Origin: Escherichia phage vB_ESM-pEJ01
DNA: 64,000 bases
Sequence record: OP114734.1
Strand: one strand, 5' to 3'
The position numbers and the translations under genes are program-made. The notes under the pieces are model-generated. The model was not told the origin of the DNA. It was given only the letters and a program-made list of their open reading frames with translations, and did not search any database. This document shows, piece after piece, positions 43,540 to 64,000 of this stretch; the stretch's first letter is position 1, and each line of letters begins with the position of its first letter.

Positions 43540-43540
43540 G

Positions 43541-47349: not shown

Positions 47350-47358
47350 ACATACCCC

Positions 47359-47881: not shown

Positions 47882-47885
47882 AATA

Positions 47886-48482: not shown

Positions 48483-48492
48483 ATGTCAACCC

Positions 48493-49440: not shown

Positions 49441-49442
49441 AA

Positions 49443-49628: not shown

Positions 49629-49634
49629 AATATA

Positions 49635-50216
49635 TCATCCTCTTTTTGGAAAATTTAAATAAGCATACTCGCCAACTATTTCATGTGCTGCACGGTCATA
49701 AGCCTTAGCCGCCTCAACTTCTGTCTCAAAGTATCCTAGATGTATATTCTTTCGATTGATAACAATATACGCCTTCCACGGCTTTTTCTTGCTTGGTGAT
49801 AATGATACACCTTTATATTTGCTATGGCAAGCCTTTTTCTTTGAGACGTTAAACTGATTTTGCTGTTCGGTTGCTTCTCTCATGTTTGACGGTCTATTGT
49901 TAGTTTTGTCTTGGTCTATGTGATCTATTCGTTCAACCTGAGTACCATACTCTAAAAACCAGACAACTCTATGTACAAACAGATTAAGTTTATGACCATT
50001 GTTGTAAAATGTAAAGTATAAATATCCTTCTTTATGGAGACATACCCTTACCACATCACCTTTTTTGTATATGGACCCTTCTTTTCGGAATCCAGCAGCT
50101 ACAGAATCCTTTAAATGGTATAATATTCCATCGACATGATAGAATCTACCTTTTATCGCTTTCTGTGTCTCGATATCCCAAAATTTTGTTTTTGCCACAA
50201 CAAACACCTCACACAA
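49635..50216 (-). mobile_element. HNH-AP2 homing endonuclease gene (193 aa)
   Basis: HIDQDKTNNRPSNMR...QQN (HNH) and YKGVS...WKAYI...GYFETEVEAAKAYD (AP2); inserted between rnh and 34. Confidence 0.65.
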
Positions 50217-50250
50217 TAAATAATTTCATATTATAACAGGAGACCCAATA

Positions 50251-53200
50251 ATGGCAGATTTTTCTCAACATTTCAAGGCCACCTTTGGCTTTGACGCTGG
50301 TAATGAAAAGGTCGTCAATGTAGCATACGCAGATAAAAACACATCAACGGATGCGGTCAACGTTGAATTTTTCAATTACCATAATGGTATTACTCAGTAT
50401 GACACAACTCGCGGTTATGATCAATACGGAACTACAATCTATCAAAACCGTCCGTATTATGCAAAAGAAGATATCACAAAGCCAGCAGGTGATTTTGACC
50501 CGACTAAATGGCAAGCACTGCGCACGGACCCACGTTGGGATTATGTTGCAGCAACTTCCGGCGATACTCCTTTAAAGTCTGGTGATTATATCGCAGCGGA
50601 CTGTCAGTTTGCAAACTTGACATTCTCAATGCCTACTAATCCGGCAGAGGGAGACACTATAACAGTAAAAGATATCGGTGGCAAGTGTGGTGTTAACGAA
50701 TTATCGTTCTTGAGTACAGGACATGAGTTTTACCATAACGGTAATGTGTACAACCGAAAATGGTATTGCACTACCCCGTATGCAATGAACTATTTCATCT
50801 TTGTTCGTAATCGTTGGCATGTTTATCAGACAGGAACAGAGCCACGCGGTGTGTACGCACAGCCAGCGATTGATGCTATTCAAATGCAGAATGGTGATCA
50901 GGTATTTCGTCGTAGTTCGTTGGGTAATATTACCTTAGTGCTTCCTAAGTTTGCCAACAATGGCGACATGATCCAGACTACAGACCTTGACGGATTAACC
51001 GCAACCAACCACGTTACGGTTAAAGTTCATGAGCACGCAGAAGAACAATCAATTGGCACGTCCGGTCTAAAAGAGATTATCGGTAAGCGTAGCGGTCATG
51101 GTGTATTCATCTTTGACAAGACGGAAAACTTATGGCGTTTGTGGGATGGTGATCAGTCTGTTCGTCTTAAACCGATCATCGATGACACTCGCTTGCAACC
51201 TAATAGCTATGTTGCTGTATTTGGTGATCGTGATGTTACTCTGACGCTGCCGACCAATGTCGAGCCGGGTGATCGTATTCAAGTTTCTATGCAGTATATG
51301 AACGGAAACCAGAATTGCCGTATTATCACCGCCACAGAGGATACAAAAATCCTTATGCAGAAAAACATGGTTCAGTTTCCTAAGCGTAGCGAGTACCCAT
51401 TCAATGGGACCGATACATGGACGGGAGTATCTGAATTGTCTTTCAACGCTGCAAATGATTATGTACCTTATGTGGAGTTCTCTTATTCAGAAGGTGATGA
51501 TGGTAAGAAATACTGGTTGGTGGCACATGCTCACCCGATTGTAGAACGAGTAGATCCGACTCGTAAAGATCGTGTTGGTGTAATTGCACTGGCTACCCAA
51601 ACTGAAACGAATAAAAACCATGAAGAGAATCCTAGCGACGAAGTTGCAGTAACACCAAAAATGCTGGCTAATAAAACCGCCAACGAAACTCGACGCGGTA
51701 TTGCTCGCATTGCGACTCAAGCGGAAACGCATCAAGATACTGGTTCCAACTTCCTGGATGATGTTATCGTTACGCCTAAAAAGTTAAATGACTGTGTTGC
51801 TACCGAAGCCCGTCGTGGTGTGATGGAAATTGCAACCCAGCACGAAACCAATGAAGGTTTAGACGATACCCGCGCTATTACTCCTAAGAAATTAGAAGAA
51901 CGTCGCGCTTCCGAAGATCTCGCTGGTATTGCTGAAATTGTTCAGGCTGGCGGCAGTGCTGCCGCTCGACGTGGCGAAGCTGGTACAGGGATCTATAACA
52001 TCAATGACCATGCTAAAATTGTTACGCCAAAAAACATCAACGAAGTCAAGGCGACCGAAACTTCCCGTGGTGTTGGCTATCTGGCAACTGACGCGGAAGT
52101 GCAAGGGGCTACAGAATCAACCCCGCAAGATGCTTTACTCATCACGACTCGCACGCTAACGAAACGTACTGCTACCGAATCGCGCACTGGTATCGCTGAA
52201 ATTGCAACTCAGGAAGAAACAAACTTAGGTCAAAGTGATAACCATATCATCACGCCTAAAAAGCTGCATACTCGCCGAGCAACGGAAACTTTACACGGTT
52301 TAGCAGAAATTGCAACTCAACCGGAGTTTGACGCAGGTCGTGACGATTCTCGCATTTCTACCCCATTGAAGATTAAAACCTTCTTTGAGAATGCACAGCG
52401 TTTGAAAGTAGATCCGACTCAGGGGCTTAACCTTACTGGTGATTTGTGGCAAGGTATCATGATCAGCGGTCTGGATGCAACCGAAGACACAAAAGGTGTC
52501 GCTAAAGTTGCGACTACTCAGCTTACTGACGCTGGTCAAGATGATACTACAATCATCACGCCTAAAAAGCTGCAAGGCAAGAAGGCCACCGAAGGTAAAG
52601 AAGGCATTATCCGAGTTGGTACTCAAGCCGAAACCGTGGCTGGTATTATGGACAATGTAGCAATTTCTCCGAAGAACTTCAAATATGTTGTTCAGACAGA
52701 GGATACATGGAAAGCAACCGAAGCGCGTCGTGGCTTCTTGAAAGTTGCTACTCAGGAAAACTGTTTTGTTGGTGATAATCTGCAAGGTTCTACTCAAGAA
52801 CTAGGAAACTACCAGCATGACGGAATTGCTGTTACCCCTAAAGGATTAAACTACGCACTTGCTAATTTCTTACCTAAGATGGCAACCGCTCAGAATAGTT
52901 TGAAATTAGGTAACGTAGAGGCCGCTAAATGGGCGCGTAGAGACATTGACCAGACCATAGAGAGCAATTACACGTTTAATAAAAACGTTAACGTGAAGGG
53001 CGATTTAGAGTGCTTAAAATCAGGTTCCTTTGAAACTCTGTCTGTGACTAAGAACTCGACCGATGTTCCGAGTAATGGTCATCTGGTGTTGGGTGAGCGT
53101 GGAGTTGACGGTCACACCGGAATTACTCTGCATGGCACAACCGCATCGGAAGGCATGAAAAACTCTTGGTCTATTATCGTTGGTGGTACTGGAACAGCGC

Positions 53201-53991
53201 AAGTTGTTGATAGTGATGCTATCGCTTTCGGTAAAATCAATGATGGTGGAGTCGTTCAGCATTACGCCTTTGCTATGAAACACAATGGCGATGTGACAGC
53301 ATATAGAGACTTTATTGCAGGTCGTAACCTGTATGCGAAACAAGGCGGGTTATACATTGTTGACCAGTCTAATCCGGCAATGACTCGTTCCCCAGATGGT
53401 ATGCTGAATATCGGTCACGGTGGAAGTGTTAACATCAAGGCAGGTCATCAAACGTTAACTACAGAGATCGCCGGACAGAAATATCAGATCGTACACGCAG
53501 GAAACGCTGACGAAGTTCTTAACCGTCAGTTTGTTAAGAATGCTGGCGATACAATGGTCGGTAAGCTGACTATGGATAATGCGCCTATTGTTTCCGTTAA
53601 GCATGAAGCTAGCGCGGCAACCGCTCCGGCAATCGGTAACATCGGTTTCTGGAATATGCGAGTTACTACCCAGAACATCAAAGAAACTTATCCAGAGAAG
53701 AAAAACGGTACTCTGATGCAATGGGGTACTGACGCGGACGGGCTTACCCAGCTTTGGTCCCCTGATGGTACTCATAAACATTATATCCGTTCCGGTACTG
53801 GTGGTCAATGGACAGCATGGGGTGAAATTTACACCAAACAGAATAAGCCTACCGCTCAGGAAATCGGGGCAGTAGTTGCAGAAGGTGGTTTAATGAACTC
53901 TATGACGGTTCGTGATTGGATCAAAGTTGGTAATGTTAAAATCATCGCCAATAATCTGACTCGTACCGTAGACTTTATCTGGGAAGACTAA
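50251..53991 (+). CDS. 34: Long tail fibre proximal subunit gp34
   Basis: 1246 aa; N-terminus matches T4 gp34 pattern; repeated TPKKL units. Confidence 0.9.
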   Translation: MADFSQHFKATFGFDAGNEKVVNVAYADKNTSTDAVNVEFFNYHNGITQYDTTRGYDQYGTTIYQNRPYYAKEDITKPAGDFDPTKWQALRTDPRWDYVAATSGDTPLKSGDYIAADCQFANLTFSMPTNPAEGDTITVKDIGGKCGVNELSFLSTGHEFYHNGNVYNRKWYCTTPYAMNYFIFVRNRWHVYQTGTEPRGVYAQPAIDAIQMQNGDQVFRRSSLGNITLVLPKFANNGDMIQTTDLDGLTATNHVTVKVHEHAEEQSIGTSGLKEIIGKRSGHGVFIFDKTENLWRLWDGDQSVRLKPIIDDTRLQPNSYVAVFGDRDVTLTLPTNVEPGDRIQVSMQYMNGNQNCRIITATEDTKILMQKNMVQFPKRSEYPFNGTDTWTGVSELSFNAANDYVPYVEFSYSEGDDGKKYWLVAHAHPIVERVDPTRKDRVGVIALATQTETNKNHEENPSDEVAVTPKMLANKTANETRRGIARIATQAETHQDTGSNFLDDVIVTPKKLNDCVATEARRGVMEIATQHETNEGLDDTRAITPKKLEERRASEDLAGIAEIVQAGGSAAARRGEAGTGIYNINDHAKIVTPKNINEVKATETSRGVGYLATDAEVQGATESTPQDALLITTRTLTKRTATESRTGIAEIATQEETNLGQSDNHIITPKKLHTRRATETLHGLAEIATQPEFDAGRDDSRISTPLKIKTFFENAQRLKVDPTQGLNLTGDLWQGIMISGLDATEDTKGVAKVATTQLTDAGQDDTTIITPKKLQGKKATEGKEGIIRVGTQAETVAGIMDNVAISPKNFKYVVQTEDTWKATEARRGFLKVATQENCFVGDNLQGSTQELGNYQHDGIAVTPKGLNYALANFLPKMATAQNSLKLGNVEAAKWARRDIDQTIESNYTFNKNVNVKGDLECLKSGSFETLSVTKNSTDVPSNGHLVLGERGVDGHTGITLHGTTASEGMKNSWSIIVGGTGTAQVVDSDAIAFGKINDGGVVQHYAFAMKHNGDVTAYRDFIAGRNLYAKQGGLYIVDQSNPAMTRSPDGMLNIGHGGSVNIKAGHQTLTTEIAGQKYQIVHAGNADEVLNRQFVKNAGDTMVGKLTMDNAPIVSVKHEASAATAPAIGNIGFWNMRVTTQNIKETYPEKKNGTLMQWGTDADGLTQLWSPDGTHKHYIRSGTGGQWTAWGEIYTKQNKPTAQEIGAVVAEGGLMNSMTVRDWIKVGNVKIIANNLTRTVDFIWED

Positions 53992-53996
53992 TTAAA

Positions 53997-54012
53997 GGGG
54001 GCGAAAGCCCCC
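53997..54012 (+). other. GNRA-tetraloop hairpin between genes 34 and 35
   Basis: GGGGGC-GAAA-GCCCCC directly after the gene 34 stop; no T-run. Confidence 0.45.
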
Positions 54013-54024
54013 TATGGGGTTATT

Positions 54025-55164
54025 ATGACACAAGATATAGAATTACGCAACACTGGAATTAGGTTTGCGCATTTCGACGAAGACTCTGCGACATTTACCA
54101 GCATTTCAGAAAATAACTCTGTGATGTATAAGCTGGAAGTGCGCGGATCTAATGCGGATTCTACCAAACCAGCAAGGATTAGATTTAATGGAGTGGAGAT
54201 CGTTGGCACTGGCTATGAAAATGGCCTAAATTTTAAAGTTCTTACTCCAACTGGACAACTACACGAAGAAAAGGTATTCTATGGTCGCGGTGCTGTTTTG
54301 GCAATGCGTGATTATCTTTCTTTGCTGAAAGGTGACTATATCATTGCGATGGCAACGCATGGAGAATTGTTTGCAGATCCGATCAGTGATGGTGTATTCT
54401 CTAAGCTGGGATCTGTATCATTCCCGAATCACATTTTGCTACAGCAAATGCCTCGTGTATCATATGCAGCAATTTATTCTACTAAAATGGGTAAAATTGT
54501 GTGCGAAGGGATGCAAGCAACTCACGGGGAAGGACAAGATTCATCTATACAAATTGAGAAAGTCTATGATACTATAGATGATCTTGCTATAACAGGAACA
54601 CCACAACGATTTTTAGATTATCCGGTTGAGTATGTTAGCGAAGATGCCGAACATTTCGAGCTAATACAATGGCCTCATGATGAGACCAGCGCCCCACTTG
54701 AGGATTTTAACATAAAGGCAGGTGACAAACTATCAATATCCTTTGAATTGTTCCGTGATAGTGCCGCAGCCGCAGCCAACGTAACAGCGCGTTTCTATCA
54801 CAACTACTTCACCGATGGACAATATCAAACTGGTGTTCGATACAATGCCAGCAAAAAAGACCAATGGGAAAAGTTTGAAGCCGTCTATACCGTACCGGAA
54901 GGAGTTGATAGTGTAGTAACTGGTTGTATCAGATATCCAACCAACTCCAATGAAGGTATTGTTAAAATTAGAAACATACTAATAACGCCGATCAGTGGAG
55001 TCGTCAAAACTACTGGTCCTACTTCATTTGGTGTTAATGGTGTTAGAACAACTCATATTCAGGATAACGGTGATTTTACTAACCCTGTAATGAGTCTTCT
55101 TAAACTACCCAGAGATAATAAACACATCACATCCAACAACTTTAAAGAGTTCGATGTTGATTAA
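54025..55164 (+). CDS. 35: Long tail fibre hinge protein gp35
   Basis: 379 aa (T4 gp35 372 aa); synteny. Confidence 0.8.
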   Translation: MTQDIELRNTGIRFAHFDEDSATFTSISENNSVMYKLEVRGSNADSTKPARIRFNGVEIVGTGYENGLNFKVLTPTGQLHEEKVFYGRGAVLAMRDYLSLLKGDYIIAMATHGELFADPISDGVFSKLGSVSFPNHILLQQMPRVSYAAIYSTKMGKIVCEGMQATHGEGQDSSIQIEKVYDTIDDLAITGTPQRFLDYPVEYVSEDAEHFELIQWPHDETSAPLEDFNIKAGDKLSISFELFRDSAAAAANVTARFYHNYFTDGQYQTGVRYNASKKDQWEKFEAVYTVPEGVDSVVTGCIRYPTNSNEGIVKIRNILITPISGVVKTTGPTSFGVNGVRTTHIQDNGDFTNPVMSLLKLPRDNKHITSNNFKEFDVD

Positions 55165-55175
55165 CATTTTTAACA

Positions 55176-55205
55176 AGCCGATCCATGTGGTCGGCTTTAT
55201 TTTTA
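55176..55205 (+). terminator. Intrinsic terminator after gene 35
   Basis: Stem AGCCGATCC/GGTCGGCT followed by TTATTTTTAT. Confidence 0.55.
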
Positions 55206-55211
55206 TACAGT

Positions 55212-55313
55212 TGGTTAAATTGTAACCAAAACGAAGAAAGATCTTTAGAATAATAGAAAATTTGTTTCGGTTAAAAAATAGCCAGTGCCTACGGCACGTC
55301 GCGAAGCGATATT
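55212..55313. repeat. Inverted copy of the 3669..3876 repeat unit plus shared CGCGAAGCGATAT segment
   Basis: Reverse complement of 55212..55270 matches 3817..3876 over about 55 nt; 55289..55313 matches 3750..3773 in inverse. Confidence 0.65.
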
Positions 55314-55325
55314 TTGTTAACATTC

Positions 55326-55333
55326 TATAAATA
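55326..55333 (+). promoter_or_regulatory. T4-type late promoter box TATAAATA upstream of gene 36
   Basis: Exact TATAAATA about 34 nt upstream of the gene 36 ATG. Confidence 0.6.
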
Positions 55334-55366
55334 CTCGGAACTATAACTAATTTTTGAGGTTACTTT

Positions 55367-56857
55367 ATGGCAGATTTGAAATATGGATCTACTGTAGGTG
55401 GATCTCCCATTTGGACGCAAGGAAACTTGACGATCCAGCCAGCAGGGGATCAGCTTTTCTACAAAGGTCATAAAATCTATACCGCTTTTGATAGACCTTC
55501 GGCTACCGATTTTGATGCTGTTAGTGCATCCGAAGGTGGCACATTTCAAAAGCAAGTTCATTTCGAGGAAGGTTTAAGCGTAGGTAGCGCATCGGCAGGT
55601 GAAACCAAAAAGAATGGTATCTTTAAAGGTCAGAGCGACGCTGCTAATTTTGACGGCGTAAGCTGGGGTTTGCATTCATGGAAGTCAATCGGCTTTGTTA
55701 ATGCCCGTGATGGCGTTATTATGGCGTATATTGACACCACAACGGGCGAATTTAAGTCTAAAGGGACTATCGAAGGGACAACCATTAAAGACACAGGTCA
55801 ACGCGTCTATAGCCCTGTTAATAAACCAACGAATAATGATTTGGATTTAGTTTCCCGTCGCGGTGATACTCTCTCAGGAACGTATAATTTAAACACTGTC
55901 ACTGTTAAACTATCGGTTGATTCGAAATTAATTGCAAGGGAACGTGATTTAATTAATTTTGATGCGACTAAGATCTATTATGGTAACGTTCTTGATACGT
56001 TGGTCTTCCGAAGTAAAGATGAGCCTACCATTTTTGTTAATGGCAAAGAAGGTCGTTTTTATCACACCAACAATAAACCAACTAAAGCCGATGTTGGGCT
56101 AGGCAATGTCACCAATGATGCACAGGTTAAACGTGCTGGTGATATTATGGAAGGTAACTTGCAAGCGCCTAGAATGTTGGCGACAAACGATCCTGCTGGT
56201 CCTAATGAATTGGTTCGTTTGAGCTACTTTGAGAGAAAATCAATGGTAGCAAATCCAACCATCATTGGAAACGTTGATTGGAACACTCTTATTAATCGCG
56301 GTATCTATCGTGTGGAAAATGCTGGGTCGGGTACTAATAAACCGTCTGATAGCTATTATAATGGCGTTTTGATGGTATATCGCCCAGAAGATGCGGTCGG
56401 TACTCGTCGAATTGTTCAGGTGTATTATCCTGAATCTATTGACCATCCGATGTGCTGGCGTTCGTGTTCTAATGAATCATGGACTGCATGGAACTATGTA
56501 GATCACCGTAAATTAGCCGATATTCGCTATGTTAACGTAACTGGCGATACCATGACAGGACCGTTAACTGTTCCGGCTGTAAACGGTGTTAGAACAGCTA
56601 AAACTAACTATAACGGGGATAACTGTTATGCGGCGTTAAGCGGTGCTGATGGTACTGCTATGATTCACCGCATTAGTGATATTAAAGGGACCGAAAAGCT
56701 GGGGATCACCCACGACTCAAAGGTCGTGTTTTTCCGTTCTCGAAACAATACTCAAACCGTGGACCGCTATCAGCTTTATCATGAAGGTAATAAACCTACT
56801 CCGGCTGATGTTGGAGCGGTTCCACTTAATGCGGTGATTGATTTTGGTACTTTCTAA
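55367..56857 (+). CDS. 36: Long tail fibre distal connector gp36 (enlarged, 496 aa)
   Basis: N-terminus MADLKYGSTVGGSPIWTQGN matches T4 gp36; longer than T4's 221 aa. Confidence 0.8.
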   Translation: MADLKYGSTVGGSPIWTQGNLTIQPAGDQLFYKGHKIYTAFDRPSATDFDAVSASEGGTFQKQVHFEEGLSVGSASAGETKKNGIFKGQSDAANFDGVSWGLHSWKSIGFVNARDGVIMAYIDTTTGEFKSKGTIEGTTIKDTGQRVYSPVNKPTNNDLDLVSRRGDTLSGTYNLNTVTVKLSVDSKLIARERDLINFDATKIYYGNVLDTLVFRSKDEPTIFVNGKEGRFYHTNNKPTKADVGLGNVTNDAQVKRAGDIMEGNLQAPRMLATNDPAGPNELVRLSYFERKSMVANPTIIGNVDWNTLINRGIYRVENAGSGTNKPSDSYYNGVLMVYRPEDAVGTRRIVQVYYPESIDHPMCWRSCSNESWTAWNYVDHRKLADIRYVNVTGDTMTGPLTVPAVNGVRTAKTNYNGDNCYAALSGADGTAMIHRISDIKGTEKLGITHDSKVVFFRSRNNTQTVDRYQLYHEGNKPTPADVGAVPLNAVIDFGTF

Positions 56858-56861
56858 TTTT

Positions 56862-56888
56862 AGCGGGGATTATCTCCCCGCTTTTCTA
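56862..56888 (+). terminator. Terminator-like hairpin between genes 36 and 37
   Basis: AGCGGGGA-TTATC-TCCCCGCT followed by TTTTCT. Confidence 0.45.
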
Positions 56889-56927
56889 AATAATATTATT
56901 CTAATAACCGTTTAAGGATTTTATAAA

Positions 56928-59834
56928 ATGGCAGATTTAAGCAGAATCCAATTTAAACGCACTAGCACTAAAGGTCGTAAACCGGATGCTAGTACGATGA
57001 ATCCGGGGGAATTGGCAATCAACCTTGCGGATCAATATCTTCTTACTAAAAATGATTCCGGTACTATTATCAATTTAAGTTGTCCTCCGGTTTATGACCG
57101 CGATGTTACAATGGCGGGTAAGGTTAAAGGTAATAATTATATCTTAAGTAAAACCGCTAACTATCTGGAAGATCAGACAGCGAGAGATCTTAACTACTTT
57201 GGCGCTTTCCGTACCAATGGTCTTGATGGTCTTCTCGAACTCACGCTAAACGTTCCTCACTCTTCCGGTGTCCAGCATGGTCGAGGATTTACTTTCCAGT
57301 ATGGACATACTGGATCACGAGTAGAAACCTATGGATACAATAAAGAAGGTCAAAAAGCATTTAGCTATAAAATGTATCACGAAGGTGATAAACCTACTCC
57401 CTCAGAATTGAACGTTTATAGCAAACAAGAAATTGACAGAATGTTTATTAAAAACGTTAAAATGTCTGTTCCTTCCGGTGACGCAACTCGTGGTTACTTT
57501 AAGATCGCGACCGCAATGATTCCGCAGAATGGTCGAATGGCATTTTTACGGATTTACGGCGGAAACGGATATAATGTTAACTCCTACGATCAGGTGGATT
57601 TCCTTGAAATTGTGATTCGTGGTGGTAATAATAACCCTAAAGGTGTTAGTATTGCTGCATATCGTCGTAATTCTTTGAACGTCCATGAAGTATTTGCAAT
57701 TAATACTTCCGGTGATAACTATGACATTTATGTTAACTATGGTCGTTACACCGATAACGTTATTGTAGAGTTTGGAAAAACTGTTGATGTTGCATTGACT
57801 GTTCACGATGTTCCTGAATTTTCGGCGACTAAACCCGCAACCGGAACTAAATTTGATGCTCGTGTTATTACGATGTTCAACACCGAAAACAAAGCCGGAA
57901 CGTTGATGTTTGATAATAACGGTCAAGGAACATATGATATTATCAGCTTGAATAACTCGACTGATAGCAATAAAAAATATCTTCGTAAGTTTCGTAGCAA
58001 ATCCGCAGAAACAATATGGCATGAGGTTGTCGAGGGTAGCGTATATCGTTTAGCTACTGGTTTTACTGATACAGCGGATCAATTAAAAATTGATTTTAAT
58101 GGTGTTACTGTAAACCGCCTTTTTGTTAAGGGTAATAACGCTATTAGAATGGAACGCCGCGACGGGCAAAGTAACTATATCGAATTCTTTGATTATCGTT
58201 CTGGTGCTAATCGTCGTCAGGGTTATCTAGGTTATGGTGATGGTACTACTAACACTGTACAGTTAGTAAATGAATTAACGGAAGGTAATAACTCTGTAAG
58301 ACTGGATGAGAACGGTCAAGTTTCATTATCCACAGGTAAAACAAAAATTGTATACACAAACGGCGAATATGTTGCTGCATACGCTAACGCATTCCGTATG
58401 ATCTACGGAAACTATGGTGCATTCTGGCGTAATGATGGTGGTAAAATTTATCTTCTGTCTACTGCCGAAAATGATAAATTTGGTAGCTGGAACGGCAACC
58501 GACCATTCATTTATTATTTGACTACCGGTAAAGTTACTTTAGGTGGTGATGGTAACGAAGGTGCATTAGTTCTCGAAAGAGATAGCCGTGCGGCTAGATT
58601 TGCAGGTGACATTTACGTCGGTAAAGGAATGCTAACCTTTGATGCTGGTCGATTAAATTCCCGCGATTACTTCCGGTTTAACCATTGGGGCGATAGCAAT
58701 AACGGTCGCGATAACATCCTACAGATTGAAGACAGTCAGGGCGCACATTTTATCACTGAACGTGCTATGGGTACTGGTAACATAACAGCACGTTTTAAAG
58801 GCTTTGTACGTGTAGAATCTGGTGAAATTGCATTTGATGCTAATCGGGGGTCGCAGTCTCAATTTACCTTACATACATGGGGTAACGAGCAACGCAAACA
58901 GGTTTTTGAATGTAAGGATGCTACAAGTTATCACTGGTATACTGAACGTACTCAGGGTGGCACTGGACCTATTCTGTTCTCTATGGCGGGTAGTCTAAAC
59001 GTTGGTAGCAATATCACAACAACTGGTGCTGATATTACGTTTAAACGCGCTGGCAATAAGCACATCTGGTTTAGAGATCCAGACGGTTTAGAGTTAGGCT
59101 TGATGTACTGCGATGATGCTGGTGTTATTCGCTTCCGTGGTCAGAAACAAGCCCAGGCGTGGAAACTTGCGGATAAGATGATTCATCTTGAATCTGGTAG
59201 CGTCGGCGGGTCTGATAAAGGTTTGATTCGTGGTAGTGTTGCTGGTGGTAGTTGGGCTGGCTGGCGTGACCGTGCTTCCGGTTTACAAGTTGATTGTCCT
59301 CAATCAACCAATTCCGCTCATAACATCTGGAAAGCTACTCATTGGGGTCAATATCATATTGCGGCAATGGGTGTACACGTTCCTGATGGTACTATCGGAA
59401 ATGCTATGGTGCGTATGCACGTACACGATGCAACTTTTGACTTTAGCGCAACTGGTGATTTCCAAGCAGGTCGTAACGGTAATTTTAACGATGTTTACAT
59501 TCGCTCTGATGCTCGCCTGAAAATCAATAAGGAAGAGTATAAGGAGAATGCCACCGATAAAGTTAATCGCTTGACGGTATACACCTATGACAAGGTTAAA
59601 TCTTTAACCGACCGTACTGTCATTGCCCATGAAGTTGGCATTATCGCACAGGATCTTGAGAAAGAATTGCCGGAAGCAGTAACAACTTCTAAGGTTGGCG
59701 ATCCAGATAAACCAGAAGAGATCTTAACAATTTCTAACTCTGCTGTCAACGCTCTTTTAATTAAGGCGTTTCAGGAAATGAGCGAAGAATTGAAAGCCGT
59801 TAAAGCTGAACTAGCGGAACTTAAAAAGAATTAA
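56928..59834 (+). CDS. 37: Long tail fibre distal subunit gp37 with C-terminal intramolecular-chaperone-like domain
   Basis: N-terminus LSRIQFKRTSTKGRKPDAS...GELAINL like T4 gp37; C-terminus has SDARLKINK and coiled coil. Confidence 0.8.
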   Translation: MADLSRIQFKRTSTKGRKPDASTMNPGELAINLADQYLLTKNDSGTIINLSCPPVYDRDVTMAGKVKGNNYILSKTANYLEDQTARDLNYFGAFRTNGLDGLLELTLNVPHSSGVQHGRGFTFQYGHTGSRVETYGYNKEGQKAFSYKMYHEGDKPTPSELNVYSKQEIDRMFIKNVKMSVPSGDATRGYFKIATAMIPQNGRMAFLRIYGGNGYNVNSYDQVDFLEIVIRGGNNNPKGVSIAAYRRNSLNVHEVFAINTSGDNYDIYVNYGRYTDNVIVEFGKTVDVALTVHDVPEFSATKPATGTKFDARVITMFNTENKAGTLMFDNNGQGTYDIISLNNSTDSNKKYLRKFRSKSAETIWHEVVEGSVYRLATGFTDTADQLKIDFNGVTVNRLFVKGNNAIRMERRDGQSNYIEFFDYRSGANRRQGYLGYGDGTTNTVQLVNELTEGNNSVRLDENGQVSLSTGKTKIVYTNGEYVAAYANAFRMIYGNYGAFWRNDGGKIYLLSTAENDKFGSWNGNRPFIYYLTTGKVTLGGDGNEGALVLERDSRAARFAGDIYVGKGMLTFDAGRLNSRDYFRFNHWGDSNNGRDNILQIEDSQGAHFITERAMGTGNITARFKGFVRVESGEIAFDANRGSQSQFTLHTWGNEQRKQVFECKDATSYHWYTERTQGGTGPILFSMAGSLNVGSNITTTGADITFKRAGNKHIWFRDPDGLELGLMYCDDAGVIRFRGQKQAQAWKLADKMIHLESGSVGGSDKGLIRGSVAGGSWAGWRDRASGLQVDCPQSTNSAHNIWKATHWGQYHIAAMGVHVPDGTIGNAMVRMHVHDATFDFSATGDFQAGRNGNFNDVYIRSDARLKINKEEYKENATDKVNRLTVYTYDKVKSLTDRTVIAHEVGIIAQDLEKELPEAVTTSKVGDPDKPEEILTISNSAVNALLIKAFQEMSEELKAVKAELAELKKN

Positions 59835-59875
59835 GGAAAATTCCCAGGGAAGGGAACTACTAAGGAGAAACGGCT

Positions 59876-60115
59876 ATGGTCTATAATATCGTCATTGGTG
59901 CTTTGTCTAATTTCGGAATGAAATTATTGTCAAAGTTAATTAGTGAAAAGATGCTCACTAAAATTTTCTTCTATTGCGCTCGTCGTCTTGCGGCTTATAC
60001 CAATACGCCAATTGATGATCGTTTTGTGGAAGAACTTTATAAGGAGTTTAATAAAGATCAGTCAGAAGATAGTAACGAGCAAGATAAACCTAGTGATAGT
60101 CAACTACCTAAATAA
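59876..60115 (+). CDS. Hypothetical small protein (79 aa) in the gp38 position
   Basis: AGGAG ribosome-binding site; hydrophobic N-terminus, acidic C-terminus; too small for gp38. Confidence 0.45.
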   Translation: MVYNIVIGALSNFGMKLLSKLISEKMLTKIFFYCARRLAAYTNTPIDDRFVEELYKEFNKDQSEDSNEQDKPSDSQLPK

Positions 60116-60148
60116 GAGTACACTGTCATAGTTATCTTAGGGCATTAT

Positions 60149-60805
60149 ATGCAAGTTTCTGAAAAAGGGAAAGACTTTGCTATCTCAAATGTCCTGCGCG
60201 CTATTTTCACAACTAAAAGCACGGAGTTGCTCGTACTTCGTGTTTTTGCTGCCGTCGTGTTGTCCATATTAGCATTTGTCGTTTATAGTAAAAACGAGTT
60301 ATTTGCGCTTTATAAAGAGACTCGTTATGAGACTTATGCTCACATTCTCCAGGTAGAGAAAGACCGCAATTTTGATAATGCAGCACAGGAGCAGTTACAG
60401 ATAGTTCATGTGTCGGCTGATGCCGATTTTTCTGCTGTTTTTAGCTTTCGTCCGAAAAACCTAAACTATTTTGTTGATTTGGTGGCATATGAAGGAAAGC
60501 TACCGCATACGATCGATGAAAAGAATTTAGGCGGGTTCCCTATCAATAAAACGAGTGAAGAATATCGTAGGCATCTTTTAGGTAAATCATATTTTACCGA
60601 TAAAGATTTCCAGTATATTCCATCGAGGGAGAAAAAATTAGAGAATATCGATATAGGGTTTATGTATTCTTGTCCTATATTCAATCTCGATAATGTCTAT
60701 TCTGGTAGTATCGCCATTGCATGGAAGAATAAACCGGATATTGACATTGAGAATTTGGATACTCTTTGCAATCAATCTGCCAGAATCCTCGGAAGGATTA
60801 GATAA
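60149..60805 (+). CDS. t: Holin T
   Basis: 218 aa, same length as T4 T; LEQLQIVH.S.EADFSAV.SFRPKNLNYFVD and YSCPYFNLDN-like motifs. Confidence 0.92.
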   Translation: MQVSEKGKDFAISNVLRAIFTTKSTELLVLRVFAAVVLSILAFVVYSKNELFALYKETRYETYAHILQVEKDRNFDNAAQEQLQIVHVSADADFSAVFSFRPKNLNYFVDLVAYEGKLPHTIDEKNLGGFPINKTSEEYRRHLLGKSYFTDKDFQYIPSREKKLENIDIGFMYSCPIFNLDNVYSGSIAIAWKNKPDIDIENLDTLCNQSARILGRIR

Positions 60806-60810
60806 CTTAA

Positions 60811-60842
60811 AGGGGAAGCCTTTCGGCCTCCCCTTCTTTTTT
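60811..60842. terminator. Bidirectional intrinsic terminator after t
   Basis: Stem AGGGGAAGCC-TTTC-GGCCTCCCCT followed by TTCTTTTTT. Confidence 0.6.
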
Positions 60843-61089
60843 ATTGGCGCATAGAAGCCCCTGAATCACATTTTGACGCTGTATGATGAAAACAGGTAGC
60901 GTACCAGTCATCGGCTTGTTTGTCTTCGTCAGAAAACGCGTAATTGCGTTGTATGCCGTTTTCTACTTTGACCAGTGCAATAGCTGTTTCTGGAAGATCA
61001 ATCAATCGGACAAAATCGCCATCTTCCCATTCTACACGAGCAATATCATAACCCATCTCAAAATAAACAATCGCTTGTTCTAATTTCAT
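60841..61089 (-). CDS. DUF2829 (Tad2-like) candidate small protein (82 aa)
   Basis: N-terminal pattern EQAIVYFEMGYDIARVEWEDGDFVRL and later ADDWY resemble the DUF2829 signature as remembered. Confidence 0.35.
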   Translation of the reverse strand: MKLEQAIVYFEMGYDIARVEWEDGDFVRLIDLPETAIALVKVENGIQRNYAFSDEDKQADDWYATCFHHTASKCDSGASMRQ

Positions 61090-61418
61090 TCTGGAAACTT
61101 CCCGTAAATGTTCTCTGCCAACATACGCGCATCGCTAATGATATCTTTCATGCTATGACCGTAGTGTTCAGCCATTGAGTTGACACAATCAACAAAGAAA
61201 TTATAACGGCGACGGTTTAAGATTTCTTCTCTGCTATAGTTTTCATATTTGACGGTCGAGTGTGCTTTCTCGATTGCCTTGATTGCTATATTGACTTCAT
61301 TGATAATGGTTTTAGCATTGTATGCGCCACGACGGATCAGGATATTTGTCAATTCTCTTGCAATATCTTGCAATTCTTCATATTCATGTTCAAACATAAT
61401 CAACCTCTCAAAATACAA
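61086..61418 (-). CDS. Hypothetical protein (110 aa)
   Basis: ORF in coupled - strand early cluster. Confidence 0.5.
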   Translation of the reverse strand: MYFERLIMFEHEYEELQDIARELTNILIRRGAYNAKTIINEVNIAIKAIEKAHSTVKYENYSREEILNRRRYNFFVDCVNSMAEHYGHSMKDIISDARMLAENIYGKFPE

Positions 61419-61421
61419 TCC

Positions 61422-61754
61422 TTACAGATGAAAACCTGTTACGATCACCGCATCGATCTTACCGCTAGGAATAAACGGTTCGCCCTCTTTTATTTCAACT
61501 TTGAATTGATGCCATTTCGCTAATACTTCTTCCGGTACACCCAGCGATTCGGCGTCTGCTTTAGTTTCATCCATAATCCAACTAGGCTGCATGAGAGCAT
61601 AGTTTACATAGTCCATTTCTGGGGTCATGTCATCAATGTTAATATATTTGCAGTTGACGCGTTTCAGAATTTCAAATTCTTTATTGTCAACCTGTACCAT
61701 GTATAATTCAGTAGTTTCTGGAATCAGTTCCCACACAATCAGTACATTTTTCAT
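61422..61754 (-). CDS. Hypothetical protein (110 aa)
   Basis: ORF in coupled - strand early cluster. Confidence 0.5.
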   Translation of the reverse strand: MKNVLIVWELIPETTELYMVQVDNKEFEILKRVNCKYINIDDMTPEMDYVNYALMQPSWIMDETKADAESLGVPEEVLAKWHQFKVEIKEGEPFIPSGKIDAVIVTGFHL

Positions 61755-61762
61755 AGTTCACC

Positions 61763-62131
61763 TCACTTAACAAAGATTTTCTTTAATGCTTTCAGGATCG
61801 TTGCTTCCGGCGCTTCTTCCGGTGGAGGAAGCAATTCTACCACTTCCTCTTCCAACTCGATATAGTCTACCAGATATTCTACATAGAATGCAAGTGCTTC
61901 CATGAAATTAGATGCTACATCCGATTCACCACAAGCGCCTACATGCATTGTATAAACATCACTGCGATCAAGTTTGTGGATGCTTCCCAGATAGTTTCGG
62001 TTATACCAGACTTCCCACACTTTCAGCTTTCCGGTTTTGGTTGCTGTTTTATAATCGGTTTCGTAATGATGCAATTGACGTTGCAAATCATTGATAATAA
62101 CACATTTTTCGTAATTGTTTTGAATTTCCAT
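61763..62131 (-). CDS. Hypothetical protein (122 aa)
   Basis: ORF in coupled - strand early cluster. Confidence 0.5.
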   Translation of the reverse strand: MEIQNNYEKCVIINDLQRQLHHYETDYKTATKTGKLKVWEVWYNRNYLGSIHKLDRSDVYTMHVGACGESDVASNFMEALAFYVEYLVDYIELEEEVVELLPPPEEAPEATILKALKKIFVK

Positions 62132-62141
62132 GATGTAATCC

Positions 62142-62333
62142 TCACTTATCGTTAAGAAGTTCTAAAACTTTCTGTCGTACTTTGTCAATATTAGTTGATT
62201 CAAAAACTGTACGGTATCCCCAGCTTTGACCGTATGATCGGTTGCAATCTCCATATCCCCATTGTTCAACCTGATAGTATTCAAGGAATGGATGCTGCCG
62301 AACTATGATACCATCTCTATTAAAAATTACCAT
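62142..62333 (-). CDS. Hypothetical small protein (63 aa)
   Basis: ORF with GAGGA ribosome-binding site. Confidence 0.45.
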   Translation of the reverse strand: MVIFNRDGIIVRQHPFLEYYQVEQWGYGDCNRSYGQSWGYRTVFESTNIDKVRQKVLELLNDK

Positions 62334-62355
62334 AATATAATCCTCACGTCAAAAC

Positions 62356-62643
62356 TTATTTTCGGTTGTGGTCACGATATGTTTTAAAATATCCCTCGTA
62401 CCACGGTAAAACATCTGGATTTTTACCACTATACAGACCTTTAACCATCATGTCAATAAGGCCATCTGGTGTTTGATAGTTTCCAGCTTTTATAAGCTCT
62501 CTGATTAAAATCTCTCTGTATATGTCTTTCGGATCTTCGTAATCAACTTGTATTGTGGTTGTGGTCTCATTCAATTTGGTTTCTGGATTATCTCGCATTG
62601 CATCCCACCAATCTTTTGTGACCTTCATGTTATTGAATTGCAT
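62356..62643 (-). CDS. Hypothetical protein (95 aa)
   Basis: ORF in coupled - strand early cluster. Confidence 0.5.
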   Translation of the reverse strand: MQFNNMKVTKDWWDAMRDNPETKLNETTTTIQVDYEDPKDIYREILIRELIKAGNYQTPDGLIDMMVKGLYSGKNPDVLPWYEGYFKTYRDHNRK

Positions 62644-62654
62644 AATTTAACCTC

Positions 62655-63413
62655 TTACTTGCAAACGTATTGATCTACATCAATTGCTCCACCGAATGTA
62701 GGATGACGTTTTTCAAATCGAATAGTTCCGTCGTTTGGTTCGAAAACGGAGTATTCATATAGATCTTTCTTGCCAACATTCTTATAAAACCCGCCTTTAG
62801 TCATAACGGTTTCTTGTACGTTTGCTTTGTGTACGTTGTATTCGTCAATGTATACAAAATCAACCATCTTCCCATTTTTAATGGTTACTTTAAGATCTCC
62901 TGGTTGATTTCCATATTTGGCATACAGTGGCGCTTCTTTAATTTTTGTGGAAATTCCATCTTTCATACTCCACTCATAACGAACGGTGCATTGATAGGTA
63001 AAAGTTTCGACCTTCGGTTCTTCCACCACTTTTTCTTCCTGTTTCGGTTGTTCTTCTTCAACCTTCGCAGAAGTCTCTGAATCGCTTTCTGACGCGGTTT
63101 CTTCTTTAGGTAATACATTCATCAAGTTTTGGATTTGAGCGTTGTATACAGCCTCCAGTGGCTGAATCTGCCCGATATTGATCATTGTATCACGAACAGT
63201 TTTATTCCAGTTGCGTTGCTCTTGTTTAAGAGACGGATCAATCTTAACAGCCTTAACATACACCTCATGAAGTTTCGAATCCAGTGCTGAGATTGACTCA
63301 TTAGCACAAATAAACTTCTCTGATTTGGTAGTGGCTTTAGCGCAATCAAAGGACGCAGCATTAGCACCGAAAGCAGTAGCGGAAATAACGATAGCAGCGA
63401 TAATGTTTTTCAT
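62655..63413 (-). CDS. Secreted protein with DUF1311/LprI-like N-terminal domain (252 aa)
   Basis: Signal peptide MKNIIAAIVISATAFGANA; SFDCAKATTKSEKFICANE pattern; acidic linker. Confidence 0.5.
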   Translation of the reverse strand: MKNIIAAIVISATAFGANAASFDCAKATTKSEKFICANESISALDSKLHEVYVKAVKIDPSLKQEQRNWNKTVRDTMINIGQIQPLEAVYNAQIQNLMNVLPKEETASESDSETSAKVEEEQPKQEEKVVEEPKVETFTYQCTVRYEWSMKDGISTKIKEAPLYAKYGNQPGDLKVTIKNGKMVDFVYIDEYNVHKANVQETVMTKGGFYKNVGKKDLYEYSVFEPNDGTIRFEKRHPTFGGAIDVDQYVCK

Positions 63414-63447
63414 AATATATTCCTCAATGTTTTGTCTTGATGGGAGT

Positions 63448-63476
63448 ATCTTACTACTCCCTTAATCCGGTGTCAA
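63448..63476 (-). promoter_or_regulatory. Early promoter (TTGACA-N17-TAAGAT) inside GGGAGTA/TACTCCC palindrome
   Basis: Plus strand reads GGGAGTATCTTACTACTCCCTTAATCCGGTGTCAA. Confidence 0.5.
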
Positions 63477-63483
63477 CTACTTT

Positions 63484-63696
63484 TTAATTTTTACCCGCTC
63501 GTGCATTAATACGCATTTTCTGCATAGCCATAATCTGGTTTACTGCTTCTTCTTTGCGTTTTTGCGTGATAACGTGACCAGATTCCGCAAACTCTCCCGC
63601 AACTTCTTCTACGATCTCGCGAACTTGAGAACGTCCAAAGATGCGGTTTCCTTCGTAGCTCATAAATTCAGTCACTACTTGCTCAATAGATTTCAT
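63484..63696 (-). CDS. Hypothetical small protein (70 aa)
   Basis: ORF with own promoter and ribosome-binding site. Confidence 0.5.
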   Translation of the reverse strand: MKSIEQVVTEFMSYEGNRIFGRSQVREIVEEVAGEFAESGHVITQKRKEEAVNQIMAMQKMRINARAGKN

Positions 63697-63729
63697 GTGA
63701 TTCTCCTTCTTTCGTTTCGGTGTGGGAGT

Positions 63730-63758
63730 ATGTTAATACTCCCATTTCTTTACGTCAA
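63730..63758 (-). promoter_or_regulatory. Early promoter (TTGACG-N17-TAACAT) inside GGGAGTA/TACTCCC palindrome
   Basis: Plus strand reads GGGAGTATGTTAATACTCCCATTTCTTTACGTCAA. Confidence 0.45.
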
Positions 63759-63761
63759 CAA

Positions 63762-63992
63762 CTATTTTAAATTATTTTCGACCTTCATCCATTCCGCGTA
63801 TTCTTGCGCGGCTACTTTCGGATTTAGTCCGTCTTCGTACATTGCTTCAAGTAATTCTTCGTCGGTGGGCTTATACCCTAGATAAGCCTCCACCTGATTT
63901 TTCCAAATTTTATACCAGTTCATATTATCACCAGTCAAGAGCGCGTGTCTCTGCGTCTTCCCATGCTTGATCCATAACAGCCTTGAAAACAT
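63762..63992 (-). CDS. Hypothetical small protein (76 aa); start may lie at an internal Met
   Basis: ORF at window edge. Confidence 0.4.
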   Translation of the reverse strand: MFSRLLWIKHGKTQRHALLTGDNMNWYKIWKNQVEAYLGYKPTDEELLEAMYEDGLNPKVAAQEYAEWMKVENNLK

Positions 63993-64000
63993 ATTCTAAA

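What the first reader, a model, noticed from the sequence alone, without database searches (positions are those of the whole stretch)
60841..61089. Possible DUF2829 (Tad2-like) anti-Thoeris candidate just after the holin gene
The 82 aa protein starts with a pattern (EQAIVYFEMGYDIARVEWEDGDFVRL) and later ADDWY that resembles the DUF2829 signature as I remember it. DUF2829 proteins include Tad2, which sequesters the Thoeris signalling molecule. The gene heads a chain of coupled small early ORFs (60841..63696) where T4 would have asiA/motA-type genes. The match is from memory and needs confirmation.
Basis: inference. Interest (0 to 1): 0.5.

Follow-up and report, generated by a model that had tools for sequence, protein, structure and literature searches.

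The report
Divergent minimal Tad2-like protein in RB49-type phage
A small, conserved gene of RB49-like coliphages, labelled only "hypothetical" in GenBank, does belong to the Tad2 family of phage proteins that soak up bacterial alarm molecules, but it is a stripped-down, unusually acidic version with an altered binding pocket, so what it binds is still unknown.

Summary

The anti-Thoeris function is not established. The protein lacks the beta2-beta3 insertion. The WNG loop is WED, the second pocket Trp is Tyr, and the subfamily is far more acidic than active Tad2s. Its closest assayed relative (Tad2_80), and both assayed homologues lacking that Trp, inhibited none of seven systems.

Verdict: a new, divergent member of a known family. 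It is most likely a signal sponge of unknown specificity, and canonical 3'cADPR sequestration is unlikely (about 0.2). Interest is moderate to low.

The parts
60841..61089 (-). Complete ORF of the Tad2-like protein: 82 codons plus the TAA stop at 60841..60843. It is identical to RB49p255 / NP_891826.1.
   Evidence: ORF listing. 100% identical in RB49 and about 30 other Krischvirus genomes, and at least 97.6% identical in all 58. Pfam PF11195 at 27.9 bits against a gathering score of 25. Among the 8 most divergent alleles there are 21 synonymous and 12 nonsynonymous distinct codon changes.
60889..61089 (-). Conserved core domain, residues 1-67. Predicted elements: alpha1 (3-11), beta1 (14-18), beta2 (26-32), beta3 (36-43), beta4 (46-50), a short helix (54-58) and beta5 (62-67).
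60844..60888 (-). C-terminal tail, residues 68-82. Predicted disordered, specific to the T-even lineage and variable.
   Evidence: pLDDT below 50 for residues 70-73 and 75-82. Absent in the Klebsiella homologues and not alignable among the T-even members. C74 varies (Y in P0001; F in L011), so a Cys/His metal site is unlikely.
61027..61029 (-). Codon for W21, equivalent to pocket Trp W25 of SPO1 Tad2 and W21 of HgmTad2. The next codons encode E22-D23 in place of the family's N-G.
   Evidence: hhalign and MAFFT alignments. Invariant in the subfamily. Ligand role of W25/N26 from 10.1101/2023.05.01.538930.
60922..60942 (-). Codons for Y50 to D56 (Y-A-F-S-D-E-D), equivalent to SPO1 W73-x-x-S76-x-T78-D79, the second half of the ligand pocket.
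   Evidence: Alignments. Y50 and D56 are invariant among the nine subfamily sequences. No nonsynonymous change occurs here among the Krischvirus alleles examined.
61086..61089 (-). ATGA overlap between the stop of the upstream 110-aa gene and the start of the Tad2-like gene, indicating translational coupling.
   Evidence: Sequence. The same overlap is kept in the distant T-even contig L003.
61086..61418 (-). Upstream 110-aa gene of unknown function (PHROG 9457), a conserved neighbour coupled to the Tad2-like gene.
   Evidence: The homologue in L003 is 27% identical, E 1e-10, in the same arrangement.
60809..60836 (.). 12-bp GC-rich hairpin between the convergent holin t and Tad2-like genes. It is a likely bidirectional terminator, with a T-run on the + strand side.
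   Evidence: RNA fold of -23.2 kcal/mol, z -4.0. Conserved in L003. Annotated as a terminator in Ec_Makalu_003.
62428..62456 (-). Nearest strong sigma-70-like promoter candidate upstream in the chain (TTGACA-17-TATAGT, 11 of 12 matches). It is a possible early promoter for the last five genes.
   Evidence: Consensus scan only. The number of such sites is not above that in shuffled sequence, so this part is tentative.

Best explanation
The ORF encodes a genuine, selectively maintained small protein of the Tad2 (DUF2829, PF11195) fold. It belongs to a rare, minimal and strongly acidic subclade found in RB49-type T-even coliphages, an uncultured T-even lineage, Klebsiella N4-like phages and Klebsiella prophages. 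The most likely function is the family's function. The protein would be made before replication from the early, minus-strand gene chain. It would assemble into an oligomer and act as a sponge that sequesters a nucleotide-derived immune second messenger, most plausibly an ADP-ribose-derived signal made by a TIR-domain (Thoeris-type) system. The ligand would sit in an interface pocket lined by W21 on one side and Y50/S53/D56 on the other, so the host effector is never switched on. The pocket chemistry is changed: WNG becomes WED, Trp becomes Tyr and Thr becomes Glu. The beta2-beta3 insertion is also absent. The ligand or binding mode is therefore probably not that of SPO1 Tad2 with 3'cADPR, and the second (cyclic-nucleotide) pocket of HgmTad2 and MoTad2 should be missing. 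What is shown: the ORF, its conservation, family membership and predicted fold, the residue substitutions, and synteny. What is inferred: early expression, oligomerisation, ligand binding and counter-defence activity.
For: Family and fold:
- PF11195 scores above its gathering score for this protein (27.9 bits) and independently for relatives at 59% and 49% identity (26.1 and 25.5 bits).
- hhalign of the subfamily against 16 Tad2s from the published assay table (15 assayed plus the SPO1, Mo and Hgm controls, less two omitted) gives 95.6% probability over 66 columns.
- The AF2 core is confident.
- Foldseek against 350,542 PDB chains ranks SPO1 Tad2+gcADPR (8smf) and MoTad2 (8v3e) first and second at probability 1.00. 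The next hit has probability 0.57.
- In BFVD, ranks 2-25 have probability >=0.95. Eleven of them are named Tad2-like or DUF2829, and the other 13 are unnamed or uncharacterised.

Pocket under constraint:
- The positions invariant between the T-even and Klebsiella groups (28-34% identical overall) include W21, Y50 and D56, the equivalents of SPO1 W25, W73 and D79.
- None of these positions changes among the Krischvirus alleles examined, where distinct synonymous changes outnumber nonsynonymous 21 to 12.

Accessory-gene behaviour:
- The same small gene occurs in three unrelated phage types in different contexts, as expected for a mobile counter-defence gene.

Expression:
- It lies on the strand opposite the late genes, with no TATAAATA late promoter on that strand in the chain, and it is translationally coupled to the upstream gene.

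Family precedent:
- As I read Table S2, 13 of 18 Tad2 homologues inhibited at least one of Thoeris I, II, IV, CBASS or Pycsar. Homologues without the WNG motif (Tad2_72, Tad2_79) still inhibited Thoeris.
Against: - No binding or phenotype data exist for this protein or its subclade, and no paper in the library links RB49 or Krischvirus with Tad2 or Thoeris.
- N26, which contacts the ligand phosphates in SPO1 Tad2, is Glu here and varies (E/D/V/T/G) across the subclade.
- W73 is Tyr. The only two assayed homologues lacking that Trp (Tad2_80 with Leu, Tad2_81 with Tyr) inhibited none of seven systems.
- The best-matching assayed homologue is Tad2_80. It is likewise minimal and acidic, and it was inactive.
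- Helix alpha2, which forms part of the SPO1 dimer interface, has no counterpart. Only 27-30 residues separate the two pocket aromatics, against 32-66 in all active homologues. The tetramer that creates the pocket is therefore not assured.
- Net charge is -6 to -12, against -4 to +1 in active Tad2s, which is unfavourable for an anionic ligand.
- Sequence similarity to solved Tad2 chains is not significant by direct search.
Confidence: 0.5

Rival explanations
1. It is a canonical anti-Thoeris protein that, like SPO1 Tad2, sequesters 3'cADPR (1''-3' gcADPR) and so blocks type I Thoeris.
For: Tad2 family membership and fold. W21, S53 and D56 match SPO1 W25, S76 and D79. As I read Table S2, type I Thoeris is the system most often inhibited by assayed Tad2 homologues: 9 of 18 including controls. 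Two homologues without WNG (Tad2_72, Tad2_79) still inhibit it.
Against: N26 to Glu places a negative charge where SPO1 Tad2 contacts the diphosphate. W73 is Tyr, T78 is Glu and H71 is Arg or Gln. The alpha2 region and insertion are absent. Tad2_80, the closest assayed relative, did not inhibit type I or type II Thoeris. Both assayed homologues lacking W73 were inactive.
Confidence: 0.2
2. A Tad2-fold protein recruited to a different job linked to the tail-fibre, tailspike or lysis module. For example, it could be a small assembly or accessory factor rather than a signal sponge.
For: In Klebsiella prophages the homologue follows the tailspike gene with a 1-nt overlap and precedes the holin/endolysin/spanin cassette. 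In an N4-like Klebsiella phage it lies between two tail protein genes. In T-even phages it abuts holin t and the distal tail-fibre genes. Tad2_80 was inactive in all defence assays.
Against: In T-even phages it is on the opposite strand from t and gene 37, in the early-type chain, with a terminator between them and no late promoter. The interval between tail-fibre genes and the lysis cassette is a classic site for accessory cargo genes (general knowledge). An assembly factor would not be expected to be shared by three unrelated virion architectures. The conserved residues coincide with the Tad2 ligand pocket.
Confidence: 0.12
3. An acidic protein-binding inhibitor, either a DNA mimic or a direct enzyme inhibitor in the manner of T4 Arn or Ocr. 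It would use the Tad2 scaffold but act on a host defence protein rather than on a small molecule.
For: Strong negative charge: core pI 4.08, net -8 overall. In T4 the corresponding interval between t and gene 52 holds small regulators and inhibitors such as asiA, arn and motA (general knowledge of the T4 map).
Against: No structural match to any DNA mimic; the only strong matches are Tad2 sponges. A claimed protein-targeting (anti-Cas9) role for a DUF2829 protein, AcrIIA7, was not reproduced (10.1101/2023.11.15.567273). The acidic residues are not arranged as an obvious DNA-like surface, as far as can be judged without coordinates (inference).
Confidence: 0.08
4. A decaying or functionally neutral remnant of a Tad2 gene with no present role.
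For: A 40-aa truncated allele exists on two contigs of about 165 kb (P0006). As I read Table S2, five of 15 newly assayed family members showed no activity.
Against: The gene is intact in all 58 GenBank Krischvirus genomes at 97.6% identity or more. Synonymous changes predominate, and none touches the pocket-equivalent positions. Length, position, ATGA coupling and terminator are all kept in a lineage only 49% identical.
Confidence: 0.05

Closest known systems
SPO1 Tad2 (PDB 8SMF/8SMD series; Yirmiya et al., 10.1101/2023.05.01.538930), the founding anti-Thoeris sponge that binds 1''-3' gcADPR
   Same: Same Pfam family and same order of secondary-structure elements: an N-terminal helix, a five-stranded antiparallel sheet, and a short helix before the last strand. 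It is the best Foldseek match (probability 1.00, TM 0.56/0.61). It shares the pocket Trp (W25/W21), S76/S53, D79/D56 and the C-terminal A-x-D-W motif. It is a similarly small protein (89 vs 82 aa).
   Different: About 18-21% identity, and not detectable by BLAST or phmmer. WNG is WED, W73 is Tyr, T78 is Glu and H71 is Arg. The 47 residues between the pocket aromatics, which include helix alpha2 of the dimer interface, are reduced to 28. Net charge is -8 against -3. There is an extra disordered 15-residue tail.
Tad2_80 (IMG/VR Ga0315297_1000001274, 73 aa; Table S2 of 10.1101/2025.08.24.671296), which is identical to P0019
   Same: It is the best match of the subfamily HMM among all assayed homologues (19.7 bits). 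It is equally minimal (26 residues between the pocket positions), equally acidic (net -6, pI 4.46), and has W-P-D-D in place of WNG.
   Different: Only 18% identical to the RB49-type protein. It has Leu rather than Tyr at the W73 position. It was assayed and inhibited none of type I, II, IV Thoeris, two CBASS and two Pycsar systems. For three of those systems the 96-well transformation failed, so the negatives there are weaker.
MoTad2 (PDB 9EIB, 8V3E) and HgmTad2/AcrIIA7 (PDB 8KBI-8KBM)
   Different: Their second pocket, for cyclic nucleotides, is built from the beta2-beta5 insertion at the A-C interface. That insertion does not exist here.
Klebsiella phage and prophage proteins that NCBI names 'Thoeris anti-defense Tad2 family protein' (P0016, P0017; also P0009-P0015 and P0018)
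   Same: Same subclade, with invariant W, Y, D and DW positions, no insertion and a very acidic composition.
   Different: 28-34% identical. They have no C-terminal tail. Their context is different, next to tailspike and lysis genes and co-oriented with them. They are also untested.

Membership tests
Tad2-like / DUF2829 (Pfam PF11195) | The sequence matches the family HMM above the curated gathering score over most of the profile. | tested here: met
   27.9 bits against a gathering score of 25, E 3.4e-6, profile positions 1-71 of 73. Relatives P0004 and P0005 also pass (26.1 and 25.5 bits). The Klebsiella homologue scores 21 bits, below the cut-off.
Tad2-like / DUF2829 (Pfam PF11195) | The Tad2 fold: an N-terminal helix, a five-stranded antiparallel sheet, and a short helix between the last two strands. 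| tested here: met
Tad2-like / DUF2829 (Pfam PF11195) | Profile-profile homology to experimentally characterised members. | tested here: met
   hhalign probability of 95.6% over 66 aligned columns against 16 Tad2 sequences from the published assay table.
Functional Tad2 sponge (SPO1/Hgm/Mo type) | gcADPR-pocket residues: W25, N26, W73, S76, T78 and D79 in SPO1 numbering, with I63, T65, D67 and H71 contributing. | tested here: inconclusive
   W21, S53 and D56 are identical to the SPO1 residues. N26 is Glu, W73 is Tyr and T78 is Glu. The beta4 positions depend on an alignment register that differs by one residue between hhalign and MAFFT. Some active homologues also lack N26, but none that lacks W73 was active.
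Functional Tad2 sponge (SPO1/Hgm/Mo type) | A homotetramer (dimer of dimers) that creates the interface pockets. The dimer contact uses helix alpha2 and strand beta2. | not testable with these tools
   Only monomer prediction is available. The alpha2 region is absent: the beta2-beta3 connection is about 3 residues. The oligomeric state therefore remains an open question.
Functional Tad2 sponge (SPO1/Hgm/Mo type) | A second, cyclic-nucleotide pocket formed by the beta2-beta5 insertion (HgmTad2 with cGG/cGAMP, MoTad2 with cUMP). | tested here: not met
   There is no insertion. 28 residues separate the pocket aromatics, against 47-65 in the SPO1, Mo and Hgm proteins.
Functional Tad2 sponge (SPO1/Hgm/Mo type) | Binds an immune signalling molecule and rescues phage from Thoeris, CBASS or Pycsar. 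| not testable with these tools
   No experimental data were found for this protein or its subclade. The nearest assayed homologue, Tad2_80, was negative.
AcrIIA7-type anti-CRISPR | Inhibits type II-A Cas9. | not tested
   The activity claimed for the DUF2829 protein AcrIIA7 (= HgmTad2) was not reproduced (10.1101/2023.11.15.567273). Type II-A CRISPR is not a feature of E. coli (general knowledge). I considered this and set it aside.

The most novel reading that the evidence does not exclude
The RB49-type, Klebsiella and Tad2_80 proteins would form a distinct 'core-only', acidic branch of the Tad2 family. Its remodelled pocket (W-[E/D/V]-D loop, with Tyr in place of the second Trp) would capture an immune or metabolic signal that is not among those assayed so far. 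For example, it could be a new TIR- or other nucleotide-derived messenger used by Enterobacteriaceae defence systems, or it could need a bridging metal ion. The protein could then serve as bait to discover that signal.
Probability: 0.2. Interest if true: 0.65.

Novelty: new member of a known kind. Interest (0 to 1): 0.35.

Why it matters
T-even coliphages are the best-studied lytic phages, and they are known to counter signalling-based immunity with Acb1, Acb2 and related proteins. In the literature I could search, no Tad2-family protein has been reported or tested in them. All 58 Krischvirus records call this gene hypothetical. Recognising it gives a concrete, easily tested candidate for how RB49-type phages, which are used in phage-therapy cocktails, cope with TIR- and cyclic-nucleotide-based defences in E. 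coli and Shigella.

The protein is also the smallest form of the fold. It would show which parts of Tad2 are needed for oligomerisation and ligand capture. If it binds something new, it would extend the known ligand range of sponge proteins. If it proves inactive, it is a useful warning that a Pfam "Tad2-like" label does not by itself predict anti-Thoeris activity.

Tried and rejected
1. Direct sequence searches against the PDB. The single sequence gave no hit. A 3-sequence profile gave only a chance hit to an autolysin (4krt, E 1.4). A 5-sequence profile put SptTad2 first, but at E 0.54. This was too weak on its own, so I turned to profile-profile and fold comparison.

2. The exhaustive phmmer search returned three large proteins at E 1e-14 to 1e-7 (P0003, P0007, P0008). 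They are eukaryotic FN3 or tandem-repeat proteins whose scores add up over 6-8 repeats of a YRVEW..DG-like motif. I rejected them as spurious.

3. P0002 (83 aa, 83% identical) was rejected as a homologue variant. Its C-terminus is the translation of the opposite-strand ORF 60883..61083, so it comes from a fold-back assembly artefact.

4. A Cys/His metal site in the tail (C66, H68, H69, C74) was considered and dropped. C74 is Tyr or Phe in other alleles, the tail is predicted disordered, and it is absent in the Klebsiella homologues.

5. Looking for this sequence in the homologue tables of the Tad2 papers failed, because the Tad2 sheet of Table S1 is truncated in the stored copy.

6. The IMG/VR pattern scan found only two loci, both identical Krischvirus contigs, so it gave no new lineages.

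7. NCBIfam has no model that names this protein.

8. All eight neighbouring genes fall in PHROGs of unknown function, and Pfam gives nothing except an LprI domain in one of them. Guilt by association with known anti-defence genes was therefore not possible.

9. tblastn of the Acb2 and Tad1 control sequences against the window found only noise.

10. The sigma-70 promoter scan gives candidate early promoters, but no more than in shuffled sequence. Early expression is therefore inferred from strand, position and the absence of late promoters, not demonstrated.

Full report
**Observation.** The window contains an ATG-initiated ORF of 82 codons at 60841..61089 on the minus strand. Its start codon overlaps the stop of the upstream 110-aa ORF (ATGA at 61086..61089). 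Four bases after its TAA stop lies a 12-bp GC-rich hairpin (60809..60836; -23.2 kcal/mol, z = -4.0). The hairpin separates it from the convergent holin gene t (60149..60805, + strand; PF11031, E 2e-61). The gene belongs to a run of closely packed minus-strand ORFs that extends to 63696. Because that run is transcribed towards lower coordinates, this is the last gene of the chain, not the first.

**Source and conservation.** The region is 93-98% identical to Krischvirus genomes, that is RB49, Phi1, JSE, GEC-3S and others. The protein is 100% identical to RB49p255 (NP_891826.1), which is annotated "hypothetical protein". All 58 Krischvirus records in the phage collection encode it at 97.6% identity or more, always as hypothetical. 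I compared the eight alleles that differ most at the protein level. They carry 21 distinct synonymous and 12 distinct nonsynonymous codon changes, and none falls at W21, E22, D23, Y50, S53, E55, D56, D61 or W62. This is a real gene under purifying selection.

**Family membership.**
- Pfam PF11195 (Tad2-like, formerly DUF2829) matches at 27.9 bits against a gathering score of 25, E 3.4e-6, over profile positions 1-71 of 73. PHROG 1048, of unknown function, matches at 5e-19.
- The protein is isolated in sequence. An exhaustive phmmer search of 1.84 billion representatives found only five genuine relatives. Three further "hits" are eukaryotic repeat proteins with repeat-inflated scores, which I rejected.
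- Two relatives of similar length, P0004 (59% identical) and P0005 (49%), each pass the PF11195 threshold on their own. A 68-72 aa Klebsiella group scores 21 bits, below the cut-off.
- Direct searches of PDB sequences are not significant. However, the best match of a five-sequence profile is SptTad2 (8WJD), with two collinear segments in the expected places.
- A profile-profile comparison of the nine-member subfamily against 16 Tad2 proteins, with sequences taken from Table S2 of 10.1101/2025.08.24.671296, gives 95.6% probability over 66 columns.

**Predicted structure.** An AF2 model built on the ten-sequence alignment has mean pLDDT 78.8. Block means are 79-90 across residues 1-67, and the tail is disordered. 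The elements are helix 3-11, strands 14-18, 26-32, 36-43 and 46-50, helix 54-58 and strand 62-67. That is the order described for Tad2.
- Foldseek against 350,542 PDB chains puts SPO1 Tad2 with gcADPR (8smf) first and Myroides Tad2 (8v3e) second, both at probability 1.00. The third hit has probability 0.57.
- In the viral library, the near-identical Krischvirus entry matches at TM 0.89. The following 24 hits all have probability >= 0.95. Eleven of them are named Tad2-like or DUF2829 proteins, and the rest are unnamed or uncharacterised.

**How it differs from characterised Tad2 proteins.**
- *Pocket residues.* The SPO1 Tad2 ligand contacts are W25, N26, I63, T65, D67, H71, W73, S76, T78 and D79. 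In the hhalign register these map to W21, E22, V40, V42, N44, R48, Y50, S53, E55 and D56. MAFFT shifts the four beta4 positions by one residue. The pocket Trp, the Ser and the Asp are kept. The family's WNG loop is WED, the second Trp is Tyr and Thr78 is Glu.
- *Missing insertion.* Only 27-30 residues separate the two pocket aromatics in the subfamily. The figure is 32-66 in every homologue that showed activity, and 26 in Tad2_80. The missing segment includes helix alpha2 of the SPO1 dimer interface. It also includes the insertion that builds the cyclic-nucleotide pocket of HgmTad2 and MoTad2.
- *Charge.* The subfamily has net charge -6 to -12 and pI 4.05-4.47. Active Tad2s have net charge -4 to +1.
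- *Closest assayed relative.* By HMM score this is Tad2_80 (19.7 bits). It shares the minimal, acidic design and inhibited none of the seven systems tested.
- *Trp73.* The two assayed homologues that lack Trp73 (Tad2_80 and Tad2_81) were both inactive.
- *Counterpoint.* As I read Table S2, 13 of 18 Tad2 proteins inhibited at least one system. Two without WNG (Tad2_72 and Tad2_79) inhibited Thoeris. The family as a whole covers Thoeris I, II, IV, CBASS and Pycsar.

**Context in relatives.**
- P0005 lies in an uncultured T-even contig at the same position. It comes at the end of a chain that starts after the topoisomerase gene. It has the same ATGA overlap with a homologue of the upstream gene (27% identity, E 1e-10) and the same terminator hairpin, and it is convergent with holin t. 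No cultured phage other than Krischvirus carries it.
- In Klebsiella prophages the homologue follows the tailspike gene with a 1-nt overlap and precedes the lysis cassette.
- In an N4-like Klebsiella phage it lies between two tail protein genes.
- NCBI already names some of these Klebsiella proteins "Thoeris anti-defense Tad2 family protein". NCBIfam has no dedicated model.

The positions invariant across these groups include W21, Y50 and D56. The same small gene thus occurs in a myovirus, a podovirus and temperate prophages, with its pocket positions conserved. That pattern fits a mobile counter-defence gene better than a lineage-specific assembly factor.

**Expression.** No T4-type late promoter (TATAAATA) lies on the minus strand within the chain. 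Sigma-70-like sites exist upstream (for example 62456..62428, 11 of 12 matches), but they are no more frequent than in shuffled sequence. RB49 is reported to have early and late promoters but no motA orthologue and no middle promoters (PMC1524935). Early expression is therefore inferred, not shown.

**Interpretation.**
- I am about 90% confident that this is a Tad2-family protein.
- I put about 0.5 on the family function, an oligomeric sponge for a nucleotide-derived immune signal, with the ligand unknown.
- Rivals are a role linked to the tail or lysis module (0.12), an acidic protein-binding inhibitor (0.08) and a neutral remnant (0.05).

None of the tools can test oligomerisation or ligand binding, and no paper in the library addresses this protein.

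**Novelty and score.** Family membership can be derived from Pfam and is precomputed for the cluster, so this is not a new kind of system. It is an unreported and untested member in a well-studied phage group, and it represents the most reduced form of the fold. I rate it a new member of a known kind, with interest 0.35. A more novel reading is a distinct branch with a new ligand, at probability about 0.2.

Noticed in passing
window 62655..63413 (-): A 252-aa ORF in the same early-type chain starts with a signal-peptide-like segment. It carries an N-terminal Pfam LprI 'lysozyme inhibitor' domain (PF07007, 26 bits against a cut-off of 22) and otherwise falls in PHROG 14799, of unknown function. 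A secreted or periplasmic protein with this domain in a T-even early region is unexplained.
   Followed up: partly
window 61086..61418 (-) and L003 4669..5004: The 110-aa gene upstream of the Tad2-like gene (PHROG 9457, unknown function) is translationally coupled to it by an ATGA overlap. The same pair, overlap and terminator are kept in a T-even contig whose Tad2-like protein is only 49% identical. The neighbour itself is only 27% identical, so it evolves faster. It could be a functional partner.
   Followed up: partly
window 60809..60836: A 12-bp GC-rich hairpin (-23.2 kcal/mol, z -4) sits between the convergent holin t and Tad2-like genes, with a T-run on the + strand side. The simple terminator scan missed it, probably because of one A-C mismatch on the + strand.
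   Followed up: yes
L004-L006 (Klebsiella genomes) 5308..8216; L002 2953..3159: The Klebsiella homologues of this protein sit immediately 3' of tailspike or tail-protein genes, with a 1-nt overlap in the prophages, and just before the lysis cassette. The small gene may travel with tailspike modules.
   Followed up: partly
proteins P0003, P0007, P0008 (from the exhaustive search): phmmer reported E-values of 1e-14 to 1e-7 for eukaryotic FN3 or tandem-repeat proteins. A short YRVEW..DG-like motif recurs 6-8 times and the scores add up. This is a reminder that whole-sequence E-values for repeat proteins can be misleading.
   Followed up: yes
proteins P0002 and P0006; window 60883..61083 (+): P0002 is a chimera whose C-terminal part is the translation of the opposite-strand ORF, so it comes from a fold-back assembly artefact in a public metagenome. 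P0006 is a 40-aa truncated allele of the gene on two contigs of about 165 kb. It is either a natural frameshift or a sequencing error.
   Followed up: partly
window 1..64000: tblastn with the T4 and PaMx33 Acb2 sequences and the SBSphiJ7 and Clostridium Tad1 sequences found no homologue in this 64-kb window. The rest of the phage genome was not examined.
   Followed up: partly
window 61763..62131 (-): This 122-aa ORF corresponds to RB49p259, whose record notes similarity to a 12.8-kDa T4 protein of the asiA-motA interval. The equivalent gene in contig L003 carries Pfam PF26821 (Phage_T4_Y16F). It is a conserved T-even gene of unknown function, two genes upstream of the Tad2-like gene.
   Followed up: no
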